Positions 1 to 13,451 are shown, counted from the stretch's first letter. The stretch: DNA of 13,451 nt from a virus (IMGVR_UViG_3300045988_086948:1-13451); one strand, 5' to 3'. Translations and numbers: made by a program. The notes: generated by a model not told the origin, from the letters alone.

Positions 1-240
1 TATATACATGTCCGCCGTACACGGACATTTCCCCCATTTTTGTCCGCACACCACGGACACAACCAACTCCGTCTGTCCGTCATAGACAAACACAAACCGC
101 CAAGTCTGTCCGCGGCGAACGCACACCAAACACAAACATATGTTCGAAGTTTTGGCTCGCTCCCTCCGGTCGCTCGCACTGGTGTTAGTCTTATCTAACT
201 CATAGGCAAAGAGAAAGGGCTATCCGAAGATAACCCTTGT
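1..240. repeat. Left inverted terminal repeat (ITR-L), 240 bp
   Basis: Bases 1..240 are the exact reverse complement of 13212..13451, checked by reading both ends. Identity breaks at 241 (gtacatc) versus the complement of 13211. It is visibly more GC- and C/A-rich than the rest of the window. It starts with TATATA. Confidence 0.97.
205..238 (-). terminator. Intrinsic terminator inside ITR-L, facing the left genome end
   Basis: On the minus strand: AAGGGTTATC-TTCG-GATAGCCCTT hairpin (215..238, 9 bp with one mismatch, UUCG tetraloop) followed by TTCTCTTTGC. It begins 8 nt after the stop of the last minus-arm gene (246). Confidence 0.6.
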
Positions 241-245
241 GTACA

Positions 246-1583
246 TCAAGACTTACTCTGAGGTCTACGCCAATCCGCCTGCACATCTTCTAAGTAAAAA
301 TCAACAAATATTGTCATTGATGTTATTTGAGCCTGAGTCTCATTGTTGGTATTGAACAGCATGACACTACCATCTGCTTTTAGTAAAGCTTTAGCGGAGA
401 ACTGTCCACCAACTGAACCATCACCACCAGACCTGTAAGCAATTGCGTAGTTACTGTTATTCTTAGGTCTAAAACAATAAGGTAATGTAAGAATCTTAGT
501 GTACTGCTGTGTTGCGTCTGGTGCTTTAAATACACCCGCAATTCTTATATGCACAAACCTTGTGCCAAAATCTACAAATGAACCATTCTGATTAATTTCA
601 AATACAGAAGTTACAGGAGATGAAGCACTAGCAATCTGCGCTCCCGGTACTCGTTCAAAATAATCTCCTAACGGTACAGGTGACTGAGTAACCAACACAT
701 TAAGAATATATCTAGCAAGTACCTCTGCATATGCTTCTGTGTAATGTAAATACTCTGTGTTTGTTTCAGTGTAAAAGTCACTTAACAACGTATCTGTAGA
801 CGGTGCAATCACAGGTGCACTAGAGAATAAGTCGACAAATGTCCATCCATTTTCTGTTGCATACTGTGAATAAAGTCTCCAATATGCGGTCTGTGGAATA
901 ACCCACGATGACGGCATACCCCTGTAGTTTTTGTATGTGCTAAACAAATACACATGACATTTAGGGTCTACACTCTGTACCTTAGTTCTGATTTTATCAA
1001 GTGCCGCTCTCATATCCTGTAAACTTGTCTGGTCACGAACATCATTAATACCACACCAGATAATAAGGTTGCTTAAACCTTTAACTGATTCATATTTTTC
1101 AAATTTATCAGCCTGTTCTGCAAGTTTAGCACCTGACACAGCATAGTTATACATATTAACCATAACACCTTTTGTCATAGTAGTGAAGTTTTTAAACCAA
1201 GTGATTCCATTTCTACTGGCTGTTAAACTGTCACCAAGTACAACTAAATTCTGTCCCTGCAATACATTCAGATAACTTACCGCACCATAGGTTGATTCGA
1301 TTATGTTTGTTAATGTTCCATCGTCACGATATTTAGTGAGTTCCTGCTGTGTAGCTTCTGTAACATATTCTGGAATATTGTTAATAGTTGTTGTATACTC
1401 AGTCACAAAATCATCAATTTTTTTGTTCTGTTCTTTCACGTTTTTATTGATATCATTCGTGAACTGAGTCATTTTAGTTTCCAGACTGTTAAAGCTGTCA
1501 ACTAATTCTTTCATTGTCTGGATTAACCAGTCAAGATTGAGTTGATGAAAGTTACTGAATGGAAACTTGTTCCATAATGCCAT
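246..1583 (-). CDS. Tail fibre / appendage protein with central SGNH (GDSL) esterase domain, 445 aa
   Basis: I place the start at ATG 1583 (MALWNKF...), preceded by AAAGGAGG with an 8-nt spacer, rather than at the ORF-track start 1616. The SGNH blocks can be read directly: VVLGDSLTA (block I), YAVSGAKL (II), IWCGINDV (III), EYLHYTE (V-like His). The N-terminus is a predicted coiled coil (FHQLNLDWLIQTMKELV...). The C-terminal ~130 aa look beta-rich. It is the last gene of the tail module, the same position as phi29 gp12. Confidence 0.7.
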   Translation of the reverse strand: MALWNKFPFSNFHQLNLDWLIQTMKELVDSFNSLETKMTQFTNDINKNVKEQNKKIDDFVTEYTTTINNIPEYVTEATQQELTKYRDDGTLTNIIESTYGAVSYLNVLQGQNLVVLGDSLTASRNGITWFKNFTTMTKGVMVNMYNYAVSGAKLAEQADKFEKYESVKGLSNLIIWCGINDVRDQTSLQDMRAALDKIRTKVQSVDPKCHVYLFSTYKNYRGMPSSWVIPQTAYWRLYSQYATENGWTFVDLFSSAPVIAPSTDTLLSDFYTETNTEYLHYTEAYAEVLARYILNVLVTQSPVPLGDYFERVPGAQIASASSPVTSVFEINQNGSFVDFGTRFVHIRIAGVFKAPDATQQYTKILTLPYCFRPKNNSNYAIAYRSGGDGSVGGQFSAKALLKADGSVMLFNTNNETQAQITSMTIFVDFYLEDVQADWRRPQSKS

Positions 1584-1597
1584 AGTATTTACCTCCT

Positions 1598-2263
1598 TTA
1601 ATATACACTTAAACAAAAACGATCTCTGAAATCAAATACCATTTTGTTTAACACGTTGATAGCTGACAGTTCATTGAACTTTTTAGCGGAATCAAGAAAA
1701 CTACCATAATCAGAAGTTACTCTGGTATAATTCCTATTTCTATCATCCGTCCCGTTTTCTGTGTTATCATAACTGGCACTTGTATTTGCATTAACATCGT
1801 CAGTTGTTAAAGAGTGGTCTTTCGGTTTTGAATTAGCTTCGTTAAAACCATATACAGCATTATCGGTAGTAATATTATCATTACTGGTGAATACTGTATT
1901 ATTACTAGAATTTATACTTCTAGTGTTCTTTTTACCCTCTTTGTCTGTAAATGTTTCCTGCTTGGCACTTGTCAGAATGTTTCCTGCTTCAAGTTCTATC
2001 GATTGCTGTGCGTTGTAATATGCTTTCCAGACTTCTTTCTGATTATCAACCCAACTTTTTGCAATCCTCTTAAAATAAGTCGGGTTGGGAAGTGTGACCT
2101 CAAGTTCACCACACTCGTATACCAATAAATCATTAAATCTTTCCAACATTGTAATAGCGGTATCTTGAGTTCTGAATAAACTGATAAAGGTATCGAGAAA
2201 CACATCGTCAATCAGGTCTTCATCCCATCCAAGTAAACCTATGATAGTAATATAAGCACTCAT
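1598..2263 (-). CDS. Lower-collar / tail-adaptor candidate (gp11 position), 221 aa
   Basis: RBS GAAAGGAG sits 6 nt before ATG 2263. It lies directly downstream of the connector gene, as phi29 gene 11 does. The middle third is N/S/T/D-rich low complexity. The function is assigned by synteny only. Confidence 0.35.
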   Translation of the reverse strand: MSAYITIIGLLGWDEDLIDDVFLDTFISLFRTQDTAITMLERFNDLLVYECGELEVTLPNPTYFKRIAKSWVDNQKEVWKAYYNAQQSIELEAGNILTSAKQETFTDKEGKKNTRSINSSNNTVFTSNDNITTDNAVYGFNEANSKPKDHSLTTDDVNANTSASYDNTENGTDDRNRNYTRVTSDYGSFLDSAKKFNELSAINVLNKMVFDFRDRFCLSVY

Positions 2264-2331
2264 ATTACACTCCTTTCAATACTTAGTCAGTTCTGCCCAT
2301 ACGATTATTAGTAACACCAGAAAAAATATTA

Positions 2332-3273
2332 CTACTGGTTTCCACATTTTCGCACTCTCCAATCTACACTTATAGGTGTTGCAAGTCTGTCTGCAAACAT
2401 TTTATTTACCTTGCTACAACATTTTTGCAATTCCTCAAGCCATAACTCACACTTACTGCGCGTTTCAAAATCATTACTTTCTGCTTCTGCTGTGATAAGA
2501 CGTTCTTTTTTGTCTGACCTCACGTTATTAATACCAATTTCATTGCAGAACATTTCTTCCCATCTTCTAAGAGTGTCTTGCAACTCAGGTGCGATGAAGT
2601 TGTCTCTCAAGTTCTGAGCGAATACTGTCCACGGCTCTGTAGTATCGCCCGCCATATTGCGCCTGCGTAAATTATTGCCATAAAATACTGCCGCTTCGCC
2701 TTTCATAATAGAATCCATTATAATTTTCATAGATTCGGCTTGCTGTTTGTTGTCCACTCCGAACATATAAGACAATTTGCTGTTTGCAATGTTAATTTCA
2801 CAGCTTTCTGCTGTAAGAGCCATATTATCTGCATAATACATTACAATATCCATTATACCGCGCCAATCTGGTTGTAGTCTGAAAATCACACAGTCTTTAT
2901 TAATTTTGCGTGTTATTTGACCTTTCAGAACAGGATTTACAATATACGCTTCTGTCGGCTGATAAAAGACGCTGTAACCATATAATCCGCATCCCTGAGG
3001 AATCACACCATAACGGTCATGGTAGAACACACAGATATAGCCCCAACAGTATAATGTGTAGAGGAAATAATTCATATCCCATTCTTCTGGCACTGTCCAC
3101 TTGAATACAGAAATTGCTTTTTGTAACAAATATCTCATAAAGTACTGCGTCAATGCTGAGTTCTGACAATGTAATGTAGATGGAGAATAAGATGAACTAT
3201 ATAAGTTCAACATATCATAGTTCATAGGAATCTGACCCATAGGATGATTCCATATTCCCGGAAAATTAACCAT
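2332..3273 (-). CDS. Portal / upper-collar connector protein (phi29 gp10-like), 313 aa
   Basis: The size matches phi29 gp10 (~309 aa). The segment WEEMFCNEIGINNVRSDKKERLITAEAESNDFETRSK aligns with remembered phi29 gp10 [37 protein letters not shown]. Confidence 0.85.
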   Translation of the reverse strand: MVNFPGIWNHPMGQIPMNYDMLNLYSSSYSPSTLHCQNSALTQYFMRYLLQKAISVFKWTVPEEWDMNYFLYTLYCWGYICVFYHDRYGVIPQGCGLYGYSVFYQPTEAYIVNPVLKGQITRKINKDCVIFRLQPDWRGIMDIVMYYADNMALTAESCEINIANSKLSYMFGVDNKQQAESMKIIMDSIMKGEAAVFYGNNLRRRNMAGDTTEPWTVFAQNLRDNFIAPELQDTLRRWEEMFCNEIGINNVRSDKKERLITAEAESNDFETRSKCELWLEELQKCCSKVNKMFADRLATPISVDWRVRKCGNQ

Positions 3274-3277
3274 ATTA

Positions 3278-3937
3278 TCACCCTTTCAAGAAATATTCAA
3301 GCCATTGCTTCGTATATTCCACTCTCCGTGGCTGTTCTACAACAGCGGGTCTTAGATAGTTAGCCGCAAACGCATAGGTAAGACCCTCAAGGTCATAGTT
3401 TAACTGATTGAACGCCCACTGTCGGAAATCACATGGATATTTTGTGGTCTTATACCACTGTGGTTCAATACCTCTGTGTGCTTCACCCACGCTCTCCTGA
3501 TACTCAGCATAGATTACTCCAAGCTGTTTATTTCCATCATACCAGTCTTCGTGACCACCATATAAAACGTCAAGCACTTTGTAAAGGTCAGTTGCGGGAG
3601 TCCACTGTACAAGCCCGTGTCCTGCTCCTGCTGATGTAGTACCTCCTCCAACTTCAATAAGACCCGGATTCAAAGTACTTTCGCCTTGCATGTTTCCAAG
3701 TAATGCCGCCACACTGTTAACATTCCATCCAAGTTTCTGATAGAAATAGTCCCATATTATAGTAGCGTTACTCTGCATATCGGTAGTAGTAAGATATCCT
3801 GACGCTGTGTCAGTAACTATTGTTTTCCATTCGCCCGCGGGTGTGATAGGTGGAACACCACCGCCCCCACCTTGCTGTTTTCCTAACAAATAGAAGATAA
3901 GAGCCGTTCCTTTACCCTCATTGTAATAACTACGCAT
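3278..3937 (-). CDS. Peptidoglycan hydrolase, phage-tail-lysozyme-like domain, 219 aa
   Basis: I place the start at ATG 3937 (MRSYYNEG...), which overlaps the upstream stop by 8 nt. The ORF-track start 4102 lies inside the tail-knob gene. The motif AALLGNMQGESTLNPGLIE...GHGLVQWT matches the remembered GILGN.q.ES.fnP...G.GlaQWT signature of the phage tail lysozyme family. An N-terminal poly-Gly/Pro linker (QQGGGGGVPPITP) is present. Confidence 0.6.
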   Translation of the reverse strand: MRSYYNEGKGTALIFYLLGKQQGGGGGVPPITPAGEWKTIVTDTASGYLTTTDMQSNATIIWDYFYQKLGWNVNSVAALLGNMQGESTLNPGLIEVGGGTTSAGAGHGLVQWTPATDLYKVLDVLYGGHEDWYDGNKQLGVIYAEYQESVGEAHRGIEPQWYKTTKYPCDFRQWAFNQLNYDLEGLTYAFAANYLRPAVVEQPRRVEYTKQWLEYFLKG

Positions 3938-5346: not shown

Positions 5347-5364
5347 ATGTTTCACGTGAAACAT
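5347..5364. promoter_or_regulatory. Copy 1 of the perfect palindrome ATGTTTCACGTGAAACAT
   Basis: 18-bp perfect palindrome centred on CACGTG. On the minus strand it lies between the post-capsid terminator and the RBS of the tail-knob gene, ending 13 nt before ATG 5333. Confidence 0.7.
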
Positions 5365-5365: not shown

Positions 5366-5397
5366 ATTAAAAAAGAGCGGGCATAACACCCGCCCTC
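5366..5397 (-). terminator. Intrinsic terminator downstream of the major capsid gene
   Basis: Minus strand: GAGGGCGGG-TGTTAT-GCCCGCTC hairpin (5375..5397, GC-rich with a 2-nt bulge) followed by TTTTTT (5374..5369). It starts 17 nt after the capsid stop codon. Confidence 0.6.
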
Positions 5398-5413: not shown

Positions 5414-6610
5414 TTAGTCAAGTAAGAACACAACAGCGTTCTCAGTGAAGTCATTCCAATATCGGTCATTAAAGTGAAACCACACATTTGTATATTCACC
5501 ACGGGCGTTATACGGAGTAGTTGCGGTTCTTGCGCCGTATGTGGTGATTCCAGCAGCTTCTTCATCCATGAGAATGCCAAAAATGTTTGATGTAGCCGTG
5601 AATGTGGAATCTGTTTTAACCATTCCTGTAGTGTCCATATAATTAGCCTTAACCTTAATTCCTGTTGGTGTTTTGATTGACTGCCAAAAATTAACGCCCT
5701 CATAGTCCATCATTTTAAGATACTGTTCATTGAATACGCTAGAAAAAATGGAACTTTCCACATTGTTCATTTCCGGAGTGTACAGGTATAAACGCTGGTT
5801 CTGCAAAGGTGTGTGTCGCATGATACTATGTCCAGTGACATTAACATGATACTGCAAACTTCTTTCCGTCATAAGTCCTGATATAGTTTTAATTCGCGAA
5901 AAAGCCCACTTGTAAAATGGTACAAAATTTTCTGGCTTCTTTACCGTATCGGAGTCTAATGACAATCCAGTAACATCGTTGTATTCTGTGACCAAGTGAA
6001 TGATATTGTCAGGGTCTGCTTTTACTTTTCCACCAATCAAGTTCGCGATAGTGGCTCTTGCTGTGGTTTCGTGGCACTGTTCGATCATGTCCATAGTGTT
6101 CTGGACAAGCATGGTGTAAAATCTTTCAAATTCTTCCTCATTCTGTAACGCAATGTTGAGCTGATCGCGAAAAATAGTATAATGCTTGCTGTATACACAC
6201 TGTCCATAAAAATTTGTCTGTAAGATATCAGGCTTACTCACAATGTCCGCGTCAATACTCTGACCGTCTACCAAGTCATATGATACATTCTGCTCAAAAT
6301 TTTTGTCACCAATATTAATCTTTCTAACATGGTTTCCCCATTTCATGTTGTCAACGTATAGTCCCGCAAATTTTCGATTGTATGGACGTATCGAAAAAAT
6401 AGTTCTTGAAATAACCTGCGACATAGCGTTAAGTAATGCGTCTGGTTCTACACCCAACGCCACCGAAGCGACCGACACGAAAGTATTAGTGTAAGAATCT
6501 GATATGTCAGTTAATCCGGTAGCCTGTCCAATAATGCTTGTAAGAACATTTACCGAACTAAAGTTAGATATCGAAGGCTGTGAATTAGATATATCTGTTA
6601 CTGCTCCCAT
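5414..6610 (-). CDS. Major capsid protein (phi29 gp8-like, HK97 fold), 398 aa
   Basis: RBS GAGAGGAGA precedes ATG 6610. The C-terminal block YNARGEYTNVWFHFNDRYWNDFTENAVVFL aligns with remembered phi29 gp8 [29 protein letters not shown]. It is followed by a terminator, consistent with a highly expressed structural gene. Confidence 0.85.
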   Translation of the reverse strand: MGAVTDISNSQPSISNFSSVNVLTSIIGQATGLTDISDSYTNTFVSVASVALGVEPDALLNAMSQVISRTIFSIRPYNRKFAGLYVDNMKWGNHVRKINIGDKNFEQNVSYDLVDGQSIDADIVSKPDILQTNFYGQCVYSKHYTIFRDQLNIALQNEEEFERFYTMLVQNTMDMIEQCHETTARATIANLIGGKVKADPDNIIHLVTEYNDVTGLSLDSDTVKKPENFVPFYKWAFSRIKTISGLMTERSLQYHVNVTGHSIMRHTPLQNQRLYLYTPEMNNVESSIFSSVFNEQYLKMMDYEGVNFWQSIKTPTGIKVKANYMDTTGMVKTDSTFTATSNIFGILMDEEAAGITTYGARTATTPYNARGEYTNVWFHFNDRYWNDFTENAVVFLLD

Positions 6611-7133: not shown

Positions 7134-7436
7134 TCACTTGTTGATTTTAATTAAATAGTCAATGTGAGCAAAACCCACAACAATTTTACCGTCTGCCATT
7201 GTGTACTGACCAAGTACCCACTTGAGGGAACTGTCAGTAAAACCGAACCCGAAGAAAGTACTGCCTTTTGGCATAGAGGTAATAACGTTGCTGTCAAACG
7301 TTGGGGCATCTCTTAACATTAAGTCAAGATTATTTGTGTCAATCTTCATCTCACCGTATAGTTCGGAATGTGGATGAAGTTCAAAACCCTGTTTGATGTC
7401 TGTTGCCTGTGAGATAATTTTTGCGGAAAGGTTCAT
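7134..7436 (-). CDS. Stand-alone bacterial SH3 (SH3b)-like domain protein, 100 aa
   Basis: LDLMLRDAPTFDSNVITSMPKGSTFFGFGFTDSSLKWVLGQYTMADGKIVVGFAHIDYLIK follows the SH3b pattern (L.vR..Ps..s.vi..l.kG........W....Y..GK..GyvH..YL). Its ATG overlaps the holin stop as ATGA (7433..7436). Confidence 0.55.
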   Translation of the reverse strand: MNLSAKIISQATDIKQGFELHPHSELYGEMKIDTNNLDLMLRDAPTFDSNVITSMPKGSTFFGFGFTDSSLKWVLGQYTMADGKIVVGFAHIDYLIKINK

Positions 7437-7630
7437 GTTTCCTCATCCTTTCCCAGTTTATCCAGTAACTTCTGTAAGACAAGAGTGTTGTTGTTCAGTG
7501 CATCCTGCATGTTCTTCATTTCTTCCTTATGGGACTGTGTTTCCTGATACCATAAGTAAAAAGTAACTGCAAGACAAGCTACAGGAACACCTAAGTTACT
7601 GAAAAGCTGTGTGATTGTATTTGCGTCCAT
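7433..7630 (-). CDS. BhlA/UviB-type holin-like membrane protein, 65 aa
   Basis: It has one N-terminal TM segment (NLGVPVACLAVTFYLWY) followed by a charged coiled C-terminus (KEEMKNMQDALNNNTLVLQKLLDKLGKDEET). This is the same layout as remembered BhlA/UviB proteins. RBS GAAAGGAG precedes ATG 7630. Confidence 0.55.
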   Translation of the reverse strand: MDANTITQLFSNLGVPVACLAVTFYLWYQETQSHKEEMKNMQDALNNNTLVLQKLLDKLGKDEET

Positions 7631-7677: not shown

Positions 7678-7778
7678 TGTAATGTAGGGAAGTCCGACTC
7701 TTGAGGTGGACGACCTCATGCACCACAGTTCCGCTGTTTGTCCTTGTGCTACGGACTTATGTTCTCCCTACACGTACA
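7678..7778 (-). ncRNA. Structured three-way-junction RNA element (pRNA-like candidate or structured late-mRNA leader)
   Basis: All pairs are Watson-Crick. The closing helix is 7683-7690/7765-7772 (TGTAGGGA/TCCCTACA), continued by 7691-7696/7752-7757 (AGTCCG/CGGACT) across a 7-nt bulge, and extended outward by 7678-7681/7775-7778. Hairpin 1 is 7702-7707/7713-7718 with loop GGACG. Hairpin 2 is 7720-7723/7746-7749 plus 7725-7728/7734-7737. The strand is chosen because a TTGACA-17-TATCAT promoter would fire into it on the minus strand. The helices alone do not determine the strand. Confidence 0.45.
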
Positions 7779-7806
7779 TGATATTACATATGAAAGTAGC
7801 TGTCAA
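7778..7806 (-). promoter_or_regulatory. Sigma-A/sigma-70-type promoter (candidate late promoter)
   Basis: Minus strand: TTGACA (7806..7801), a 17-nt spacer, then TATCAT (7783..7778). It lies in the last codons of the ATPase gene. The predicted start is around 7771-7773, the first bases of the closing helix of the RNA element. Confidence 0.5.
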
Positions 7807-8848
7807 GAAGAAATTTCGATTCTATGTCTTCAAAATATATCTTGTCTTCCAAATAGTTAATGTTCCATATCCATGAATAGTACCGTTTAAAAGCTTTGAT
7901 GTTCTTTTCATTGATTCCGATAAAAGTTCGTAATGGTTCGCCCTGTTTATGTTTACATACATAGAGCATATCTGAGGACTTGTGTTCATAAATGGCTATT
8001 TCTTCGAAAAATACCAATGGAAGATATTCCGACAGGTTTTGCGTCCTCACATCCGAATAATCGGTGTCATAGAACTCATTTCCAAGTGCCATTTGAGAAA
8101 ATCCGCTGTCCTTACCTACCATCTTATAGAGAGCCGTATTCTGTTTTGCCTGAGAAATAGGACTGTTACATAAATTATATAACGCAATATCTCTATCACG
8201 TAGGAACGCCGTTTCCTGATGCTTCCGTGACATATCAGCAACTTTGCGGATAAGCCCTAAACTTGCGAATAACTCACAGCCCACGTTATCTGAGTTCGAA
8301 AAGCATAACACCTGTAGAGGTGGCAGTCCTTTCAACTCCCTATTTCGGTTCATGGTTTCATAACCGTGAAGAAAAGACGTTGCAATTCCTTTTGGAACAC
8401 GGTCACCTTTCTGCGGAATGAACTCATCCCATATCCACACAGACACATCCTCGGCAGAAAATCCACGTAAATTTGCTAATGTAGTGATAGCTGACGCATA
8501 ACCGATAGGTTGACCAACTGGTACAAGTCTGTCTTTCTCATTGAGTTCTGTGTGATAGAATCCTGCAATATCATCTACAGGGAATGGCTGTATATTCCAA
8601 TCATTATCTGCATTTAACGGTTTGAATGGTGACAACTCAATGTTTTTAATCTTGTCAAGCTGAGTTTGTTTTGTTCTAGAATACATGAAAGTCTTGTTGT
8701 GTTCCACGACATATTTCAGACCACCATATGTCTTGCCCGTACCACGCCCGCCCCAGATAAAGTTAAAGGGATAGCCTTTTTGGACTATCCCCTCAACATC
8801 CAGATAACCTTGCGTTGTGTACAGGCTCTTGGATTTATTCTTTGACAT
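7784..8848 (-). CDS. DNA packaging (encapsidation) ATPase, phi29 gp16-like, 354 aa
   Basis: I place the start at ATG 8848 (MSKNKSKS...), overlapping the SSB stop by 14 nt. The ORF-track start 9001 runs through the SSB gene. Walker A is IWGGRGTGKTYG, Walker B is VWIWDEF, followed by ETMNRNRE...LCFSNSDNV. These are colinear with remembered gp16 VIGARGIGKSYA / IVFDEF / DTVFRNRE...ICLSNAVSV. Confidence 0.9.
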   Translation of the reverse strand: MSKNKSKSLYTTQGYLDVEGIVQKGYPFNFIWGGRGTGKTYGGLKYVVEHNKTFMYSRTKQTQLDKIKNIELSPFKPLNADNDWNIQPFPVDDIAGFYHTELNEKDRLVPVGQPIGYASAITTLANLRGFSAEDVSVWIWDEFIPQKGDRVPKGIATSFLHGYETMNRNRELKGLPPLQVLCFSNSDNVGCELFASLGLIRKVADMSRKHQETAFLRDRDIALYNLCNSPISQAKQNTALYKMVGKDSGFSQMALGNEFYDTDYSDVRTQNLSEYLPLVFFEEIAIYEHKSSDMLYVCKHKQGEPLRTFIGINEKNIKAFKRYYSWIWNINYLEDKIYFEDIESKFLLDSYFHM

Positions 8849-9191
8849 ATTTTGCGGTGATGTACTCCCGGTTGTTCTTGCTATGTTCTGCAACGATTTC
8901 GATACATACATCTGCAACGTTGCAACGTTTTGCAAGTTCCATAATTCTGTCGAATGTGCGAACAAATGCCGCTGAGGTTGTTGCGAAAACATGACCCTCA
9001 TTGGTTGATACGGTAAGAACTTTTACCAGTTCACCCTCTGCGTTTTCTTCTTCATATAAACAGAATTTGTCAATGTGAACCTGTTTTCCTTTGAGGTCAG
9101 CACCACGTAATCTGTCTGGGGACTCAAACATATCATAACTAAGATTCATGTCCCACTCATTGTCTTTGATATTTGTTTTAATAATATTCAT
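8835..9191 (-). CDS. Single-stranded DNA-binding protein candidate (phi29 p5-like), 118 aa
   Basis: RBS AAAGGAGAA precedes ATG 9191. LTVSTNEGHVFATTSAAFVRTFDRIMEL...IEIVAEHSKNNREYITA is colinear with remembered phi29 p5 TTIFAADGSLYSAISKTVAEAASDLIDL...VKVVQGTSSKGNVFFSL. The size is similar (118 versus 124 aa). Confidence 0.5.
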   Translation of the reverse strand: MNIIKTNIKDNEWDMNLSYDMFESPDRLRGADLKGKQVHIDKFCLYEEENAEGELVKVLTVSTNEGHVFATTSAAFVRTFDRIMELAKRCNVADVCIEIVAEHSKNNREYITAKYVKE

Positions 9192-9264: not shown

Positions 9265-9340
9265 CTATAGTTCTATATTCAGTTGTAAGTGATTCGAAAA
9301 GTATGGCAATACAAGATATAAAAGGTTTTTTTTTTTACTG

Positions 9341-9622
9341 TTACTCTGTTACGACTGGTTTCATATCGTCTGGAATCTCTGGTTCATCCACTGCGCTGTC
9401 CATCTCTGCAATAGCGGCTCTTACAAAGCCTTCATCAGAAAGCTTGTAAGTATTAAACTTTGTTTCTGTAGTGATGTTTTCAACCGTAGCCCCTGCCGGA
9501 ACAAGTTCATCATCTTTCTTCATATTATTATACATTTTAACCTGCGTCCAACCCGTTCCGATGAATTCCTTTGTGACAAGCTTAATATCATCACTGTCTT
9601 TTTCTTTGATACTCAGTGTCAT
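9341..9622 (-). CDS. Acidic-tailed small protein, possible p6-like dsDNA-binding (histone-like) protein, 93 aa
   Basis: It is the first gene of the minus arm and lies directly upstream of the p5-like gene, which is the phi29 6-then-5 order. FNTYKLSDEGFVRAAIAEMDSAVDEPEIPDD resembles remembered p6 TEVYELPVEKFLEVATVRVEKDEDQEEQTE, including the acidic C-terminal tail. ATG 9622 has no obvious Shine-Dalgarno site. Confidence 0.35.
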   Translation of the reverse strand: MTLSIKEKDSDDIKLVTKEFIGTGWTQVKMYNNMKKDDELVPAGATVENITTETKFNTYKLSDEGFVRAAIAEMDSAVDEPEIPDDMKPVVTE

Positions 9623-9791: not shown

Positions 9792-9805
9792 AAGTGTGAT
9801 ATTAT
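9777..9805 (+). promoter_or_regulatory. Near-consensus extended -10 promoter for the plus (early/replication) arm
   Basis: TTGACA (9777..9782), a 17-nt spacer ending in TGa, then TATTAT (9800..9805). The RBS AAAGGAG (9835..9841) and ATG 9850 lie about 40 nt downstream. Confidence 0.65.
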
Positions 9806-9849
9806 ATAAGTGTTCCAGAAATAGTACTTATATGAAAGGAGTTTTAACA

Positions 9850-10101
9850 ATGACTAAAAAAGAGATAGTTGAGACACTGGATAAACTGTATAATGAAATT
9901 GAAAAAGGTACTGACATGTATGTGTATATCAATAGTATCATGTTCACCACTCATTTTGGAGAGAATGCCAGAATGGAAGTTAAGAAACCTTGTGCTGATG
10001 ACAGCATGTATTGGTTTTTCATGTTTTCTGGTTATGGCGTGACTGCCGCTGTTATGAGTGCTAATATCCATGATATTAAGATTGAGGTAGTGGAGAAATG
10101 A
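9850..10101 (+). CDS. Early protein of unknown function, 83 aa
   Basis: I place the start at ATG 9850 (MTKKEIVETL...), 8 nt after AAAGGAG. The ORF-track start 9796 lies inside the promoter. I recognise no motif. Confidence 0.6.
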   Translation: MTKKEIVETLDKLYNEIEKGTDMYVYINSIMFTTHFGENARMEVKKPCADDSMYWFFMFSGYGVTAAVMSANIHDIKIEVVEK

Positions 10102-10172
10102 GTTTGTTCTTGTTAGGATTATGTGTTGGTTTAATTGTGGGGTTCGTCATAGACGGACTTCACAATGACTAA
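10098..10172 (+). CDS. Possible 24-aa hydrophobic micropeptide (MSLFLLGLCVGLIVGFVIDGLHND)
   Basis: Its ATG overlaps the upstream TGA as ATGA. GAGGT lies 9 nt upstream. The peptide is a single TM-length hydrophobic stretch. It is too short for any statistical support. Confidence 0.25.
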   Translation: MSLFLLGLCVGLIVGFVIDGLHND

Positions 10173-10190
10173 TGTTTCACGTGAAACATT
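10171..10190. promoter_or_regulatory. Copy 4 of the palindrome, 20-bp form AATGTTTCACGTGAAACATT
   Basis: Perfect 20-bp palindrome ending 22 nt before ATG 10213 of the RHH gene, which is the head of the RHH, terminal protein and polymerase block. Confidence 0.7.
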
Positions 10191-10212
10191 TCAAGAATGA
10201 AAGGAGAAAACG

Positions 10213-10386
10213 ATGAAAACAGTAAGTGTTAATTTTCAAGAAGATATCTTGAAAAACCTTGATGAACTTGCTTCTAAACTGGGTACTTCAAGAAGTAATG
10301 CATTAATGATAGTATTAAGAGAGAATGTGATACTCTCTTTAATAGGAAAGGAATGTGGAAAATATGGCAAAGAAATCTGCAAGTAG
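10213..10386 (+). CDS. Ribbon-helix-helix (CopG/Arc/MetJ-like) DNA-binding protein, 57 aa
   Basis: It is not in the ORF track because it is shorter than 60 aa. RBS AAAGGAGAA lies 4 nt before ATG 10213. KTVSVNF (beta strand), EDILKNLDELASKLG (helix A), TSRS turn and NALMIVLRE (helix B) form the canonical RHH layout. It sits immediately upstream of the terminal protein gene, the position of regulator p4 in phi29. Confidence 0.6.
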   Translation: MKTVSVNFQEDILKNLDELASKLGTSRSNALMIVLRENVILSLIGKECGKYGKEICK

Positions 10387-10870
10387 AATACAGCTTGAAG
10401 TCAAATACAGAGAGTTGAGAAAGAAACTTACAGGTCAGATAGCAAAAGTTTCTAAGAGTGCTTATGCAAAAGACGTAGAAGCGGCGAGGGCTTATATTGA
10501 ACCTAGAATTCCAGTTGTTTCAAAGATTAAGTCTAAACGTAACTTGGAAATGGCAATTCGTGAAGTAGAAGCGGCATTGAAGAACAAGACATTTGTGATA
10601 GCTGAGAGAAAACGACAGCGTAAGGCGGCAGTTGAAAGACTAAATATTACGTTTGGGACTAATCAGTTCAAGAATTGGAGACAAGCATCAAAGTTCTATG
10701 ATTTTATGAATCTTGTAAGAACACATTCCGAAGATATCATATATGACAGCGATAAAGCCGCCGATATCTACCTTGAACACACCAATGAACCATCACAAAA
10801 AATATTAGAGAGATATCGTGAGTATGAATCAGAATTCCGTAAAAGAAGTCCCAAGAGAGTGCGTTTCTGA
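10355..10870 (+). CDS. Terminal protein (replication primer) candidate, 171 aa (168 aa if ATG 10364 is used)
   Basis: It lies directly upstream of the protein-primed polymerase gene and overlaps it, as phi29 gene 3 does. The basic N-terminus EVKYRELRKKLTGQIAKVSKSAY resembles remembered phi29 TP KAEYARLVKNTKAKIARTKKKY. QFKNWRQASKF resembles QFNKWKEQASSF. The start is ambiguous: GTG 10355 or ATG 10364 (GGAAAGGA lies 11 nt upstream of the ATG). Confidence 0.55.
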   Translation: MENMAKKSASRIQLEVKYRELRKKLTGQIAKVSKSAYAKDVEAARAYIEPRIPVVSKIKSKRNLEMAIREVEAALKNKTFVIAERKRQRKAAVERLNITFGTNQFKNWRQASKFYDFMNLVRTHSEDIIYDSDKAADIYLEHTNEPSQKILERYREYESEFRKRSPKRVRF

Positions 10871-12920
10871 CATTATCAAAAGTATACCAATTGCAAGAAA
10901 CTACAGTAAAAGAAAGAAAGCAGATAAGACATTATTCCGCAACTGTATGTGTGCTTTCGATATTGAAACAACTTATCTTGATGATGTTGAACAGAGTATT
11001 ATGTACATCTGGCAGTTCGCCGTGATGGACTTGCGAACAGAAAATATTTGGTACTGTTTCGGTAGAACGTGGGATGAATTTTTAGGGTTGTTGAACAGCT
11101 TCTACCATGAGGGTATTACCGTTATGATATGGGTTCATAACTTGAGTTATGAATTTCAGTTTATGCGGCACTGGTTGCCTTTTATGAAAGACAAGATATT
11201 TGCCCTCAAGTCAAGAAAAGTTGTGAGAGCGGATATTGACGGAGTACAGTTTAGGTGCTCCTATATACAAACTAACAAGAGTTTGGACGCATTCACAAAA
11301 GACATGGGTGTGAAGCATCAAAAGCTCAGTGGGGTTGAATTTGACTACTCAAAGAAACGTTATCCATGGACTGAAATGACAGAATATGAATTAACATATG
11401 GGTGTAATGATGTTGTCGGTCTACTCGAAGCAATGAAAGTTAGAATGGATATGGAACATGACACGTTGTATTCTATACCACTTACTTCTACGGGATATGT
11501 TCGGCGGCTTGCCAAGAATGCAATGAAGTCATTCAATCATAATCAGCTACAGGCTATGATGTGTAATACCGATGTATATAGACTGTTAAGACTTGAGTTC
11601 CGTGGTGGTGATACACACGCTAATAGGTATCATGTTAATAAGATACTTGAGAACGTGGCAAGTTTTGACCGCGCAAGTAGCTATCCAGACGTTATGCTAA
11701 ATTATAAGTTTCCTATGAGTGCATTCACACCAAGGATGATAACTGATATAGAGGAACTTGAGCGGAAGTGTAAAATCAGAGATTGCTGTTTCATTGCTGT
11801 GTTTACTATCACTCATTTACAACAGAGGGATATATATTACGGAGCACCGTACCTTAGTCTTGATAAGGCTGTCGAGATAAGTGGTCAAGTAGTTGACAAT
11901 GGGCGTGTATTGAGTGCTGACCAGGCTGTATATGTGTTTAATGATATTGACTGGAAGATAGTCAAGAGTGAGTATGTCGGTGAAGTTGAGATAAGTCAAG
12001 TGTATATTGCTAAATATGGGTATTTGCCACAAGCATTTAGGAATCTGGTCATTGACTTGTTTCACAAGAAAACATCACTCAAGAACGTTGACGGTCAAGA
12101 GTTAAACTACATGAGGAGTAAAGAGTTGATTAACTCACTGTATGGGATGTGTGCTCAGAACCCTGTTAAGCCAGATGTAATATATATGGATGAACCCGAA
12201 CAGGCTTTTAAGTTAGAAGATATAAAAGATATAGGAGAAAAACTTGAGAAATATAACAAGAAAGCATTCCTGTTATATGCGTGGGGCTGTTGGGTAACTG
12301 CATGGGCTAGACTCAAATTGAAAGAGATGATAAACATTGTTGGAGATAATTTTGTATATTGTGACACTGATTCTGTCAAGTTCCTTGTTCGTAATGATTA
12401 TAATAGAATTGTGGCAAGGATAGAGGAATATAATCAGGGTCTAAAAGAACTTAGTATATCAAACAAAGGATATGCTGATGACAAAAAAGGCATTACACAT
12501 TATTTAGGTGTATATGAATATGAAGAAACATATAAACAGTTTAAAACGTTAGGAGCGAAAAAGTATGCATACACTAGACAAGACGGAACATTTAAAATTA
12601 CAATCGCAGGAGTACCCAAGAAAGCGGGGGCGAGAGAAATGGAAACAATCGAAAACTTCAATGTTGGTTTCGTATTCCGTGATTCGGGTAAGTTGGAATC
12701 AGTATACAATGACAGTGATTACGGAACTTACTATACAGATGATTCATCAGAACATCGAATTGAGATTCGTTCAAATGTTGTGTTACGAGAATCAACGTAT
12801 GAAATCGGTCTTTCGTTGGAGTACATGTATCTTTTGGCATCTGTTGGAAATTGGAATAGATTTATAACACAAGAAAGGTTGAAATGGGATGAACAGAGAA
12901 TTATTGGAAATCAGGGATGA
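10818..12920 (+). CDS. Protein-primed family-B DNA polymerase (phi29 gp2-like), 700 aa
   Basis: Exo I is FDIETT, Exo II is HNLSYEFQF, Exo III is YGCNDVVGLLEA. Motif A is DRASSYPDVM, motif B is KELINSLYGMCAQ, with TAWARL. Motif C is VYCDTDSVKF. The KxY motif is GAKKYAY. ENFNVGF is also present. All are colinear with remembered phi29 polymerase. The start is GTG 10818 or ATG 10824. Confidence 0.95.
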   Translation: MSMNQNSVKEVPRECVSDIIKSIPIARNYSKRKKADKTLFRNCMCAFDIETTYLDDVEQSIMYIWQFAVMDLRTENIWYCFGRTWDEFLGLLNSFYHEGITVMIWVHNLSYEFQFMRHWLPFMKDKIFALKSRKVVRADIDGVQFRCSYIQTNKSLDAFTKDMGVKHQKLSGVEFDYSKKRYPWTEMTEYELTYGCNDVVGLLEAMKVRMDMEHDTLYSIPLTSTGYVRRLAKNAMKSFNHNQLQAMMCNTDVYRLLRLEFRGGDTHANRYHVNKILENVASFDRASSYPDVMLNYKFPMSAFTPRMITDIEELERKCKIRDCCFIAVFTITHLQQRDIYYGAPYLSLDKAVEISGQVVDNGRVLSADQAVYVFNDIDWKIVKSEYVGEVEISQVYIAKYGYLPQAFRNLVIDLFHKKTSLKNVDGQELNYMRSKELINSLYGMCAQNPVKPDVIYMDEPEQAFKLEDIKDIGEKLEKYNKKAFLLYAWGCWVTAWARLKLKEMINIVGDNFVYCDTDSVKFLVRNDYNRIVARIEEYNQGLKELSISNKGYADDKKGITHYLGVYEYEETYKQFKTLGAKKYAYTRQDGTFKITIAGVPKKAGAREMETIENFNVGFVFRDSGKLESVYNDSDYGTYYTDDSSEHRIEIRSNVVLRESTYEIGLSLEYMYLLASVGNWNRFITQERLKWDEQRIIGNQG

Positions 12921-13047
12921 TTTAAAAGGAACTCTTGACGCTATGTTATTTAGCAATGACCCCACAGAGTTGAACAGCTTGTTAATTCAAGCGGCAAAAG
13001 ATTTGCTTAATTATCAGCAAGCAATAAAGAAAGGTAATAGGTGGTAA
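12889..13047 (+). CDS. Small helical protein of unknown function, 52 aa
   Basis: It is not in the ORF track. ATG 12889 lies 10 nt after GAAAGG and the ORF overlaps the polymerase 3' end by 32 nt. The translation is MNRELLEIRDDLKGTLDAMLFSNDPTELNSLLIQAAKDLLNYQQAIKKGNRW. Confidence 0.35.
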   Translation: MNRELLEIRDDLKGTLDAMLFSNDPTELNSLLIQAAKDLLNYQQAIKKGNRW

Positions 13048-13049
13048 GA

Positions 13050-13205
13050 ATGTGTGAAAAGAATTGTTATAATACGGGTGACAACAAAGACCTCAAGTGT
13101 GAGTTATGTCTGTCGGCTCGAAATCAGGGTCAAAAAGCTATCCCACCAGAGTGGGTTGACTATTATATGGCTAAGTTCCAAAGACCGAAATATGGTCGAA
13201 TATGA
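13050..13205 (+). CDS. Cys-rich micro-protein (CX3C-X10-CX2C, zinc-ribbon-like), 51 aa
   Basis: It is not in the ORF track. AGGTGG lies 5 nt before ATG 13050. The translation is MCEKNCYNTGDNKDLKCELCLSARNQGQKAIPPEWVDYYMAKFQRPKYGRI. It stops 6 nt before ITR-R. I prefer it over the overlapping 67-aa GTG ORF 13054..13257, which runs through the ITR terminator hairpin. Confidence 0.4.
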   Translation: MCEKNCYNTGDNKDLKCELCLSARNQGQKAIPPEWVDYYMAKFQRPKYGRI

Positions 13206-13211
13206 GAGAGT

Positions 13212-13451
13212 ACAAGGGTTATCTTCGGATAGCCCTTTCTCTTTGCCTATGAGTTAGATAAGACTAACACCAGTGCGAGCGACCGGAGGGAGCGAGCCAA
13301 AACTTCGAACATATGTTTGTGTTTGGTGTGCGTTCGCCGCGGACAGACTTGGCGGTTTGTGTTTGTCTATGACGGACAGACGGAGTTGGTTGTGTCCGTG
13401 GTGTGCGGACAAAAATGGGGGAAATGTCCGTGTACGGCGGACATGTATATA
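13212..13451. repeat. Right inverted terminal repeat (ITR-R), 240 bp
   Basis: It is the exact reverse complement of 1..240 and ends in TATATA at the last base of the window. Confidence 0.97.
13214..13247 (+). terminator. Intrinsic terminator inside ITR-R, facing the right genome end
   Basis: This is the mirror copy of 205..238: AAGGGTTATC-TTCG-GATAGCCCTT followed by TCTCTTTGCC, 9 nt after the last plus-arm stop codon. Confidence 0.6.

What the first reader, a model, noticed from the sequence alone, without database searches (positions are those of the whole stretch)
1..13451. Complete 13.45-kb linear phi29-like phage genome with rearranged architecture
The window starts and ends exactly at a perfect 240-bp ITR. 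It holds a full replication, packaging, head, tail and lysis gene set in about 20 ORFs. Only 5-6 nt of non-ITR DNA remains beyond the outermost stop codons. From memory, characterised phi29-like podoviruses are roughly 16-21 kb, so this would be unusually small for the group. Gene order also differs from phi29. The p6-like, p5-like and ATPase genes are fused to the structural arm on one strand. The regulator, terminal protein and polymerase sit on the opposite arm. Both arms are transcribed outward from one central control region.
Basis: partly seen in the sequence, partly recalled or inferred. Interest (0 to 1): 0.75.

Follow-up and report, generated by a model that had tools for sequence, protein, structure and literature searches.

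The report
Gut phi29-like phage with pRNA-like RNA
The window is a nearly complete 13.45-kb genome of an uncultured human-gut relative of phage phi29; such small genomes are already common in public catalogues, but this one carries a conserved folded RNA, apparently not described before, that looks like the packaging RNA known so far only from Bacillus phages.

Summary
There is a perfect 240-nt ITR at both ends, 17-19 genes, and 5 and 6 nt between the ITRs and the outermost stop codons. Pfam and PHROG confirm a protein-primed PolB, a gp16-type ATPase, a gp10-type connector, a Phi29-type capsid protein and a gp13-type tail lysozyme.

The genome is probably 4 nt short at each end. Seven related contigs begin AAAGTATA, which includes phi29's AAAGTA terminus.

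The novelty claim does not hold. IMG/VR has 18 collinear 12-13.5-kb relatives, the best at about 92% ANI. An ENA contig is identical to the window minus its ITRs. Cultured phi29-like phages of 10.4-12.3 kb already exist. Placing the ATPase before the head genes is normal for this clade. Only the replication module is inverted.

One thing was not in the finding. An 88-nt three-way-junction RNA (7771-7684, minus strand) starts at a strong promoter just after the ATPase gene. Its structure is strongly supported by covariation. Two of its loops stay complementary through nine different sequence pairs across lineages, and cultured Amedibacillus phage AD70P3 has the same fold. The layout matches phi29 pRNA, but Rfam RF00044 does not detect it. 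I estimate about 0.45 that it functions as a pRNA. A cis-acting leader is the main rival.

The parts
1..240 (.). Left inverted terminal repeat. It probably lacks the true terminal AAAG. It contains TGTCCG-N7-CGGACA at 9-27 and 41-59, and GTCTGTCCG at 71-79 and 104-112.
13212..13451 (.). Right inverted terminal repeat, 100% complementary to 1-240.
215..238 (-). Terminator-like hairpin at the inner edge of the ITR, facing the leftward arm. Its mirror copy at 13214-13237 (+) faces the rightward arm.
246..1583 (-). Terminal tail protein or fibre with a GDSL/SGNH hydrolase domain (445 aa). It is the most variable gene among relatives.
1598..2263 (-). 221-aa protein, a probable lower collar or adaptor (gp11-like).
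   Evidence: Position. Weak profile hit to phi29 gp11, 6qz9, E 0.097. 2 of 6 family members hit phrog_3225 adaptor, 9e-7.
2332..3240 (-). Connector / upper collar (gp10-like).
   Evidence: PF05352 1e-16; phrog_2038 9e-34
3278..3937 (-). Tail-associated lysozyme (gp13 N-domain type).
   Evidence: PF18013 3.8e-22; start codon
3930..5333 (-). 467-aa conserved structural protein, a tail-knob candidate by position.
   Evidence: Synteny in all relatives. Only 1 of 8 family members hits phrog_2248 tail protein, 4e-3. No PDB hit.
5373..5397 (-). Intrinsic-terminator-like hairpin plus T-run after the capsid gene.
5414..6610 (-). Major capsid protein, Phi29 type.
   Evidence: PF25622 2.2e-14; phrog_2006
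6629..7117 (-). 162-aa Pro/Ala-repeat protein, a scaffold candidate by position.
   Evidence: no family hit
7134..7436 (-). 100-aa protein of unknown function (faint SH3_3 hit).
7433..7630 (-). 65-aa protein with one hydrophobic (putative transmembrane) segment, holin-like. In every lineage it lies next to the RNA.
   Evidence: phrog_9829; synteny
7684..7771 (-). 88-nt three-way-junction RNA with pRNA-like architecture.
- Closing helices: 7771-7765 with 7690-7684, and 7757-7752 with 7696-7691.
- C-like stem: 7749-7746 with 7723-7720.
- CE-like loop: 7745-7738, containing GGAC at 7743-7740.
- E-like stem-loop: loop CGGAA at 7733-7729.
- D-like hairpin: 7717-7703, with loop CGUCC at 7712-7708.
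7778..7806 (-). Strong sigma-A-type promoter, TTGACA-17-TATCAT, inside the 3' end of the ATPase gene. The predicted start of transcription is at about 7771, which is the first base of the RNA.
7784..8848 (-). gp16-type DNA-packaging ATPase (354 aa).
   Evidence: PF05894; phrog_2150 5.5e-23
8835..9191 (-). 118-aa protein, a weak phi29-type SSB (p5-like) candidate.
   Evidence: phrog_6243 7.6e-4; PF17427 0.036
9341..9622 (-). 93-aa acidic protein of unknown function. The 'p6-like' label is not supported.
   Evidence: conserved in L018 and L022
9729..9805 (.). Divergent promoter-like sites: minus strand CTGACA-17-TACTAT (9757-9729) and plus strand TTGACA-17-TATTAT with TG (9777-9805).
9850..10101 (+). 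83-aa hypervariable early protein of unknown function.
10213..10386 (+). 57-aa ribbon-helix-helix-like regulator candidate.
   Evidence: PF01402 2e-3, below the cut-off
10364..10870 (+). 168-aa basic, all-alpha protein. It is the terminal-protein candidate by position only; it overlaps the polymerase start.
10824..12920 (+). Family-B DNA polymerase of the protein-primed type.
   Evidence: PF03175 2.4e-14; phrog_1907 3.9e-67
12889..13205 (+). Two small, variable ORFs (52 aa and 51 aa) of unknown function.
5347..5364 (.). 18-bp perfect palindrome ATGTTTCACGTGAAACAT, copy 1 of 4. The other copies are at 7646-7663, 9218-9235 and 10172-10189.

Best explanation
The window is the near-complete genome of an uncultured human-gut podophage of the phi29-like, protein-primed kind. 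About 4 nt are probably missing at each end. It belongs to an already catalogued, unnamed clade of 12-14-kb genomes.

Inferred life cycle:
- The linear DNA carries a terminal protein on each 5' end.
- A type-B polymerase starts at both ITR origins. The true ends are probably AAAGTATA..., which would allow phi29-style sliding-back.
- Two early units diverge from about 9729-9805. The rightward unit holds the regulator, TP candidate and polymerase. The leftward unit holds a 93-aa protein, an SSB-like protein and the ATPase.
- A strong internal promoter at 7806-7778 drives the late unit: holin-like protein, scaffold, capsid, tail, connector, collar and fibre.
- Hairpins inside the ITRs end both arms.

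The late transcript begins with an 88-nt three-way-junction RNA whose two loops are complementary. My preferred reading (about 0.45) is that this is the clade's counterpart of phi29 prohead RNA. On that reading it would form a ring on the connector by loop-loop pairing between copies and would dock the gp16-type ATPase.

What is shown: the gene identities, the ITR, the RNA structure and its covariation.
What is inferred: protein priming, the transcription programme and the RNA's function.
For: ITR and spacing.

Core phi29-like proteins.

Physical ends:
- Seven related contigs (L042, L046, L047, L050, L053, L054, L055) begin AAAGTATA(T/C)ACATGTCCG, and 10 of 18 relatives carry ITRs of 99-311 nt.
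- The phi29 ITR is AAAGTA (PMC11476376).
- An ENA assembly broke exactly at both ITR boundaries, as expected for a real inverted repeat.

Clade: 18 collinear full-length relatives, with ANI x coverage up to 90%.

Promoters and terminators.

RNA structure:
- RNAalifold predicts 26 pairs, 6 of them with compensatory changes, among close relatives.
- On 25 sequences, 98.6% of cells are paired and 22 of 30 pairs change on both sides. No shuffle out of 500 reaches the observed values, and slid controls give 31-44% paired. All 4 loop-loop pairs are compensated.
- G-U pairs occur only when the minus strand is read.

RNA distribution and loops:
- CM hits were found in L018-L024, L057, L023, L027-L030 and L063.
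- Nine cognate loop pairs: GGAC:GUCC, GAAC:GUUC, AGAC:GUCU, GGGU:ACCC, GAAAC:GUUUC, CACC:GGUG, GAGU:ACUC, CGC:GCG and UCC:GGA. Two further lineages are tentative: L025 also has UCC:GGA, and L031 would add a tenth pair, GCUA:UAGC.
- The longest Watson-Crick match averages 4.1 nt for cognate loops against 1.95 nt for non-cognate ones, and 0 of 5000 shuffles reach the observed total.
- Independent MFE folds reproduce the junction in 7 lineages, including the cultured Amedibacillus phage AD70P3.

Promoter: a consensus promoter ends 5-8 nt before the RNA in 13 lineages.

Comparison with pRNA: the phi29 pRNA MFE fold has the same order of elements.
Against: Against the genome reading:
- The terminal-protein candidate has no sequence or fold match.
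- The window itself lacks the AAAG terminus.
- No read-level data are available.
- The host is unknown; MAG binning of relatives is contradictory.
- No dedicated endolysin was found.

Against the pRNA reading:
- Rfam RF00044 does not match even at E <= 10 on 131 nt, although it scores 145 bits on phi29-type pRNA.
- My model does not find phi29 pRNA.
- The C-like stem is 3-5 bp, against about 9 bp in phi29, and it matches the D-like stem in length, so intramolecular kissing is geometrically plausible.
- In the window no terminator follows the RNA, so it is probably made as the 5' end of a long mRNA.
- The RNA is linked to the start of the late operon and to the 65-aa gene, not always to the ATPase (L028, L029, L030).
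- The connector lacks the basic N-terminus that, from memory, phi29 gp10 uses to bind pRNA.
Confidence: 0.85

Rival explanations
1. The conserved RNA is a cis-acting 5' leader of the late mRNA, for example a stabiliser against 5' exonuclease, a processive antitermination element of the put/EAR kind, or a protein-binding regulatory site. On this reading the loop-loop pairing is an intramolecular tertiary contact that compacts the junction, and the RNA has no role in packaging.
For: - The RNA starts at the predicted transcription start of the late promoter. In the window no terminator separates it from the next gene.
- It is linked to the start of the late operon even where the ATPase lies on the other arm (L028-L030).
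- The C-like and D-like stems have matched lengths, 3-5 bp, in all 15 lineages, as in riboswitches with kissing hairpins.
- A terminator follows the capsid gene and would need read-through.
- There is no Rfam pRNA match.
Against: - No conserved expression platform or junction sequence exists. Only the structure, the loop complementarity and the apical CGGAA loop are conserved, which is the conservation pattern reported for pRNAs (PMC5066667).
- In L028 and L029 the RNA lies after the first late gene, without a promoter.
- In L027 and AD70P3, and less clearly in L023 and L057, a U-rich tract follows the closing helix, suggesting that a discrete RNA is made.
- The capsid-gene terminator is not conserved among relatives.
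Confidence: 0.35
2. The ITRs are an assembly artefact, or the contig is not the full genome: the real molecule is longer, circular or permuted.
For: - The public ENA version of the same sequence lacks both ITRs.
- No reads could be examined.
- The window lacks 4 nt that relatives carry at their ends.
Against: - Ten independently assembled relatives carry ITRs of 99-311 nt, and seven contigs start at the same nucleotide with AAAGTATA.
- All 18 relatives are collinear and 11.8-13.5 kb long, with no extra genes.
- An inverted (not direct) repeat at both ends of a unique core is not what a circular genome yields.
- Coding runs to within 5-6 nt of both ITRs, and terminator hairpins sit inside them.
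Confidence: 0.05
3. The element is a protein-primed linear plasmid or a non-viral mobile element rather than a phage.
For: Protein-primed PolB genes and ITRs also occur in linear plasmids and casposon-like or polinton-like elements (general knowledge).
Against: - A full phi29-type virion module is present: capsid, connector, ATPase, tail lysozyme and fibre.
- The closest cultured relatives are lytic phages.
Confidence: 0.02

Closest known systems
IMG/VR UViGs of the same genus-level cluster, e.g. IMGVR_UViG_3300045988_147142 (13,370 nt); and ENA contig ERZ28576519 scaffold_2553
   Same: - Collinear over the whole length, with the same gene set, ITRs, RNA and palindromes.
- The best relative has about 92% ANI over 97% of the window.
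- The ENA contig is 100% identical to 241-13211.
   Different: - Similarity is below the 95% species threshold for every IMG/VR relative.
- The tail fibre, gene M and the right-end small genes differ.
- None of these records is described or named, as far as the held collections and papers show.
Amedibacillus phages AD70P2/AD70P3 (12.2-12.3 kb, cultured, filed under Guelinviridae in GenBank)
   Same: - Small phi29-like genome.
- Same order: ATPase, small protein, capsid, tail protein, portal, collar, fibre.
- Same promoter-proximal three-way-junction RNA after the ATPase gene.
   Different: - Polymerase 34% and capsid 31% identical.
- All main genes lie on one strand, so there is no inverted replication block.
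- GC content of AD70P2 is 26.7% (PMC11476376), against about 39% here.
Bacillus phage phi29 and Salasmaviridae
   Same: - Protein-primed PolB, gp16 ATPase, gp10 connector, Phi29-type capsid and gp13-type lysozyme.
- Relatives' termini begin AAAGTA, like phi29.
- The regulator-TP-polymerase block is transcribed outward.
   Different: - Polymerase only about 22% identical.
- 13.5 kb against 19.3 kb.
- 240-nt ITR against 6 nt.
- The ATPase sits at the start of the structural arm, not the end.
- The SSB lies on the structural strand.
- There is no head fibre and no separate endolysin.
phi29 prohead RNA (Rfam RF00044)
   Same: - Same order of elements: a closing helix made from the 5' and 3' ends; a three-way junction; a first arm made of a stem, a 7-9-nt loop on the 5' side only, a 4-5-bp stem and a 5-6-nt apical loop; and a second arm that is a hairpin with a roughly 5-nt loop.
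- 3-5 nt of the internal loop are complementary to the hairpin loop, and the two covary between phages (PMC5066667, PMC12670572).
   Different: - No covariance-model match in either direction.
- About 62-97 nt, against 120-174 nt.
- The first stem is 3-5 bp, against about 9 bp.
- The longest junction strand lies between the hairpin and the closing helix, not between the two arms.
- It is encoded at the head of the late operon, not next to the genome end under an early promoter.
- Its function is untested.
Astrithrvirus (Salmonella phage astrithr, 11.6 kb) and allies
   Same: Very small phi29-like genome with PolB, ATPase, connector and capsid.
   Different: - Capsid about 24% identical.
- Gram-negative hosts.
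- 18-nt ITR in the deposited record.
- Different gene order (polymerase, ATPase, connector, capsid).
- No RNA hit.

Membership tests
phi29-like protein-primed podophages (informal group) | Family-B DNA polymerase of the protein-primed type | tested here: met
   PF03175 2.4e-14; phrog_1907 3.9e-67
phi29-like protein-primed podophages (informal group) | gp16-type packaging ATPase, gp10-type connector and Phi29-type capsid protein | tested here: met
   PF05894, PF05352 and PF25622 all score above their Pfam cut-offs; PHROG hits
phi29-like protein-primed podophages (informal group) | Linear genome with inverted terminal repeats and a reiterated terminal base (AAA...) | tested here: met
   240-nt perfect ITR. 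AAAGTATA termini occur on 7 related contigs, but the 4 terminal nt are absent from the window itself.
phi29-like protein-primed podophages (informal group) | Terminal protein covalently bound to the 5' ends | tested here: inconclusive
   The candidate lies directly upstream of the polymerase. It has no Pfam, PHROG or PDB sequence hit and no Foldseek match. The covalent linkage cannot be tested here.
Salasmaviridae | Close protein relatedness to phi29, genome of about 18-27 kb, and a pRNA that matches RF00044 | tested here: not met
   Polymerase about 22% identical; no capsid hit to Bacillus phages at 1e-5; 13.45 kb; no RF00044 match
Guelinviridae (Clostridium perfringens phages) | Shared capsid and polymerase orthologues at family level | tested here: not met
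   The polymerase hits Clostridium phages only weakly. The capsid protein hits no Clostridium phage at 1e-5. The Amedibacillus phages filed there are 31-34% identical. No proteome-wide clustering was run.
Astrithrvirus | At least 70% intergenomic similarity (genus threshold) | tested here: not met
   No nucleotide match; capsid about 24% and polymerase about 36% identical
Species or genus shared with catalogued IMG/VR genomes | At least 95% (species) or at least 70% (genus) nucleotide similarity over the whole genome | tested here: met
   Genus level is met with six relatives: L055 at 89.7, then L049, L050, L047, L053 and L040 at 71-80. Species level is not met with any IMG/VR record. The ENA contig is the same genome.
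Prohead RNA (pRNA) | Three-way junction with a closing helix from the 5' and 3' ends, a C-CE-E arm and a D hairpin, in that order | tested here: met
   compared with the phi29 fold
Prohead RNA (pRNA) | Complementary CE and D loops that covary between phages | tested here: met
   All 4 loop-loop pairs are compensated. Nine cognate pairs; 0 of 5000 shuffles reach the observed total.
Prohead RNA (pRNA) | Match to the curated covariance model RF00044 | tested here: not met
   No match at E <= 1 on the whole window or at E <= 10 on 131 nt. The positive control scores 145 bits.
Prohead RNA (pRNA) | The loop pairing is intermolecular and builds a ring on the prohead; the RNA is required for packaging | not testable with these tools
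   Needs biochemistry or cryo-EM. The equal stem lengths leave intramolecular pairing possible.

The most novel reading that the evidence does not exclude
The 88-nt RNA at 7771-7684 and its relatives in at least 9 lineages, including cultured Amedibacillus phage AD70P3, are true prohead RNAs. On this reading they multimerise through the covarying loop-loop pairs and bridge the connector and the gp16-type ATPase. An RNA component of the packaging motor would then be an ancestral and widespread trait of phi29-like phages rather than a peculiarity of Bacillus phages. It would also provide a second, much shorter and very diverse family of self-assembling three-way-junction RNAs.
Probability: 0.45. 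Interest if true: 0.85.

Novelty: new member of a known kind. Interest (0 to 1): 0.55.

Why it matters
The genome itself adds only one more species to a catalogued but unnamed clade of very small gut podophages.

The value lies in the RNA. Reviews state that pRNA is known only from phi29 and related Bacillus phages (PMC5066667, PMC11476376). A 2025 covariance-model survey again recovered only phages of Bacillus and close relatives such as Cytobacillus (PMC12670572). Whether other phi29-like motors, which have the same truncated ATPase, also need an RNA has stayed open.

Here there is an RNA with the same architecture and the same signature of covarying complementary loops. It has strong comparative support, and it is also present in a phage that can be grown. 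That makes the question directly testable. If the RNA turns out to be a leader instead, it is still a new and well-supported structured RNA class of gut phages.

Tried and rejected
- Rfam search on the whole window and on the 131-nt region: nothing relevant. No tRNAs.
- Searching phi29-type pRNA with my model R2: no hit.
- A hand-written descriptor scan (three-way junction plus at least 4 nt of loop complementarity), meant to extend the RNA to other phage families. It gave about as many hits in shuffled sequence as in real sequence (859 shuffled hits in 267 kb), so I abandoned it. One apparent hit in L068/L069 did not fold convincingly.
- Model R2 found nothing in astrithr, Clostridium phage HM2, L033-L035 or L065-L069.
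- Terminal-protein test: homologues are all close. The AlphaFold model is all-alpha with pLDDT 78. There is no Foldseek match to any PDB chain and no profile hit.
- The 467-aa protein has no PDB hit, either alone or as a profile.
- Host inference from GTDB genomes: relatives are binned into MAGs of unrelated taxa (Phascolarctobacterium, Coprenecus, Vampirovibrio, Christensenellaceae and others), so no host call is made. Shine-Dalgarno sites of the GGAGG type and TTGACA/TATAAT promoters suggest a Bacillota-like host.
- My hand parses of the RNA in L025 and L031 are not the MFE folds, so I count them as tentative.
- A riboswitch reading was considered and set aside because the junction nucleotides are not conserved.

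Full report
OBSERVATION. Positions 1-240 and 13212-13451 are perfectly complementary, with 12971 nt between them. The leftmost gene, on the minus strand, has its stop codon at 246-248. The rightmost ORF ends at 13205. That leaves 5 and 6 nt before the ITRs. Genes from 246 to 9622 are on the minus strand and genes from 9850 to 13205 are on the plus strand. GC skew changes sign at about 9500-10000.

GENE CONTENT. Pfam and PHROGs identify six proteins with confidence:
- a protein-primed-type PolB (10824-12920);
- a gp16-type ATPase (7784-8848);
- a gp10-type connector (2332-3240);
- a Phi29-type capsid protein (5414-6610);
- a gp13-type tail lysozyme (3278-3937);
- a terminal tail protein with a GDSL/SGNH domain (246-1583).

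Weaker assignments:
- The 118-aa protein has two independent faint matches to phi29-type SSB (phrog_6243 7.6e-4; PF17427 0.036).
- The 57-aa protein is RHH-like but scores below the Pfam cut-off.
- A profile of the 221-aa protein family weakly matches phi29 gp11 (6qz9, E 0.097), and two family members hit an adaptor PHROG.
- The 467-aa protein is conserved in every relative but has no informative match.

Three labels do not hold up:
- The 'p6-like' label has no support.
- The terminal-protein candidate (10364-10870) is assigned by position only. Its all-alpha AlphaFold model (pLDDT 78) matches nothing in the PDB.
- No dedicated endolysin was found.

COMPLETENESS AND ENDS. Eighteen full-length IMG/VR contigs of 11.8-13.5 kb are collinear with the window along its whole length. 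Ten of them carry ITRs of 99-311 nt. Seven contigs begin with exactly the same sequence, AAAGTATA(T/C)ACATGTCCG. The window begins at TATATACATGTCCG. The true ends therefore probably carry four more bases, AAAG, which would make a 244-nt ITR. AAAGTA is the ITR of phi29 (PMC11476376), and the AAA run fits a sliding-back start of protein-primed replication (this last point is inference). An ENA assembly of the same genome (ERZ28576519 scaffold_2553, 12971 nt) is identical to 241-13211. In other words, that assembler stopped at both repeat boundaries, as expected for a genuine inverted repeat.

RELATIVES AND SIZE. In GenBank phage records the only nucleotide match is a 6.9-kb fragment from Mexican human faeces, at 90% identity. 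Protein searches recover these relatives:
- unannotated human-faecal contigs of 12.4-15.7 kb;
- the cultured Amedibacillus phages AD70P2/P3 (12.2-12.3 kb);
- Astrithrvirus (11.6 kb);
- Vibrio phage K58 g2 (10.4 kb);
- Clostridium phage HM2.

A 2024 review lists many human-gut phi29-like genomes of 12-16 kb (PMC11476376). The closest IMG/VR genome has about 92% ANI over 97% of the window, and six relatives exceed 70%. The window is thus a further species of a catalogued but unnamed genus. It is not unusually small for the group.

ARCHITECTURE. The order ATPase, small proteins, scaffold-like, capsid, 467-aa protein, (lysozyme), connector, collar-like, fibre recurs in AD70P3, L023, L024, L027 and L057. 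In those genomes the polymerase block lies upstream on the same strand. In the window's clade (L001-L022) and in L030, the regulator-TP-polymerase block is inverted. So the genome is 'rearranged' relative to phi29, but that arrangement is ordinary for this group apart from one inversion.

TRANSCRIPTION SIGNALS (consensus scans only).
- Back-to-back promoter-like sites lie at 9757-9729 (minus strand) and 9777-9805 (plus strand, 11 of 12 matches with a TG motif).
- The other 11-of-12 site is TTGACA-17-TATCAT at 7806-7778 on the minus strand, inside the end of the ATPase gene.
- A hairpin with a T-run follows the capsid gene at 5397-5373.
- A hairpin at the inner edge of each ITR faces each arm.

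There are therefore at least three transcription units, not one central control region.

A CONSERVED STRUCTURED RNA. In a whole-genome alignment, the non-coding stretch just after the ATPase stop codon is as conserved as the best coding regions. Columns 7701-7800, which also include the last bases of the ATPase gene, are 88% identical. The stretch shows compensatory changes.

On the minus strand it folds into an 88-nt three-way junction, 7771-7684:
- two closing helices made from the 5' and 3' ends;
- a first arm with a 4-bp stem, an 8-nt loop on the 5' side only (AAGGACAA), a 4-bp stem and an apical CGGAA loop;
- a second arm that is a 5-bp hairpin with the loop CGUCC.

Comparative support is strong.
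- RNAalifold on 19 close relatives predicts 26 pairs, 6 of them with changes on both sides.
- A covariance model then found the RNA in more distant genomes whose polymerase is 41-68% identical.
- On the 25-sequence alignment, 98.6% of cells pair and 22 of 30 pairs change on both sides. No shuffle out of 500 reaches the observed values, and slid controls pair at 31-44%.
- The many G-U pairs would be A-C on the other strand, which fixes the strand.

THE TWO LOOPS COVARY. GGAC in the internal loop is complementary to GUCC in the hairpin loop. Across lineages the pair becomes GAAC:GUUC (L022), AGAC:GUCU (L024), GGGU:ACCC (L057), GAAAC:GUUUC (L023, L063), CACC:GGUG (L027), GAGU:ACUC (L028, L029), CGC:GCG (L030) and UCC:GGA (AD70P3). 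L025 (also UCC:GGA) and L031 (GCUA:UAGC) are tentative. Cognate loops share on average 4.1 nt of Watson-Crick match, against 1.95 nt for non-cognate combinations, and 0 of 5000 shuffles reach the observed total. The apical CGGAA loop is invariant in most lineages.

LOCATION OF THE RNA. A consensus promoter ends 5-8 nt before the first helix in 13 lineages. The RNA always lies at the head of the structural operon, next to the 65-aa holin-like gene. It is usually directly after the ATPase gene. In L028-L030, however, the ATPase lies on the other arm, and in L028 and L029 the RNA follows the 65-aa gene.

COMPARISON WITH pRNA. The MFE fold of phi29-type pRNA has the same order of elements (the sequence was confirmed):
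- a closing helix from the two ends;
- a junction;
- a C stem, then a 9-nt loop on the 5' side only that contains AACC, then a 4-bp E stem and a 6-nt loop;
- a D hairpin whose 5-nt loop contains GGUU.

Intermolecular pairing of those two loops builds the pRNA ring. pRNAs share little sequence but keep their structure and their loop complementarity (PMC5066667, PMC12670572).

There are also clear differences. RF00044 does not match the new RNA, although it scores 145 bits on its own family. My model does not find phi29 pRNA. The new RNA is shorter. Its first stem is 3-5 bp and matches the second arm in length, so an intramolecular kiss is possible. In the window it is probably the 5' end of a long transcript.

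The held literature reports pRNA only from phages of Bacillus and close relatives. I therefore rate 'works like pRNA' at about 0.45, a cis-acting leader at about 0.35, and another trans-acting role for the remainder. Membership in the Rfam family is not met.

PALINDROME. ATGTTTCACGTGAAACAT occurs four times, against 0.17 expected by chance. Each copy lies 1-9 nt upstream of a ribosome-binding site: for the 467-aa protein, the 65-aa protein, the SSB-like protein and the RHH-like protein. A half-site lies at 9255-9264. The motif recurs at syntenic places in relatives and in more distant genomes. Full dyad symmetry, including the centre, together with the half-sites, suggests an operator for a dimeric regulator, possibly the RHH-like protein. 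This was not tested.

VERDICT. The finding is real, but as stated it is ordinary: a near-complete genome of a known kind of small gut podophage. The size and novelty claims are outdated. The unexpected content is the pRNA-like RNA. It is well supported as a structure, appears to be undescribed, and can be tested experimentally in a cultured relative.

Noticed in passing
window 5347-5364, 7646-7663, 9218-9235, 10172-10189 (half-site 9255-9264): The 18-bp perfect palindrome ATGTTTCACGTGAAACAT occurs four times, against 0.17 expected by chance. Each copy lies just upstream of a ribosome-binding site. It is conserved at syntenic sites in relatives and is present in L023 (four copies), L024 and L018-L022. 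It is a candidate operator, possibly for the RHH-like protein.
   Followed up: partly
window 9-27, 41-59, 71-79, 104-112 (mirrored in the right ITR): The ITR interior holds two TGTCCG-N7-CGGACA inverted repeats and two GTCTGTCCG direct repeats. The arms are conserved while the spacers vary among relatives. The same inverted-repeat motif is in the L023 terminus. These are likely origin-binding sites.
   Followed up: partly
window 215-238 (-) and 13214-13237 (+): The inner edge of each ITR encodes a 10-bp hairpin followed by a T-rich tail, right after the last gene of each arm. One repeat sequence would therefore serve as the terminator for both outward transcription units.
   Followed up: no
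window ends; L042, L046, L047, L050, L053, L054, L055: Seven related contigs start AAAGTATA..., the same first six bases as the phi29 ITR. The window starts 4 nt further in, so the assembly is probably trimmed by 4 nt at each end.
   Followed up: yes
L058 (ENA ERZ28576519 scaffold_2553): A public contig of 12971 nt is identical to window 241-13211, that is, the genome without either ITR.
   Followed up: yes
window 5373-5397 versus L038-type relatives: In one sub-group of relatives, the terminator after the capsid gene is replaced by a second, degenerate copy of the palindrome (GTTTCACGTGGGAC).
   Followed up: no
L059 (Amedibacillus phage AD70P3, OP172639) about 6320-6385, minus strand: This cultured phage has the same arrangement in the 123-nt gap after its packaging ATPase gene: a promoter followed by a three-way-junction RNA with loops AUAUCCAA and GGGA and apical loop CCGAA. 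The deposited record does not annotate it.
   Followed up: partly
window 7433-7630 and homologues in all RNA-bearing loci: The 65-aa protein with one hydrophobic segment is unusually well conserved (42-77% identity across lineages whose polymerases are 40-68% identical). It is always adjacent to the RNA, either before or after it.
   Followed up: partly
proteins P0009, P0060, P0063 (homologues of window 10364-10870): JGI names homologues of the terminal-protein candidate 'acetyl-CoA carboxylase alpha subunit', which is probably a misannotation. The 99%-identity cluster P0001 has 205 member sequences, so this phage type is common in public metagenomes.
   Followed up: no
window 6991-7044: A tandem CTGGTG repeat encodes an (AP)7 run in the scaffold-like protein.
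   Followed up: no
window 246-1583, 9850-10101, 12889-13205: The tail fibre, the first rightward gene and the two right-end small ORFs are much more variable among relatives than the rest of the genome (17-64% against about 80-90% column identity). This is consistent with host-range and host-interaction functions.
   Followed up: no
L063-L069 (GTDB genome contigs): Whole phi29-like contigs of 11-12.5 kb are binned into MAGs of unrelated taxa (Phascolarctobacterium, Vampirovibrio, Elusimicrobiaceae, Christensenellaceae and others). These are probably binning artefacts rather than evidence of hosts.
   Followed up: no
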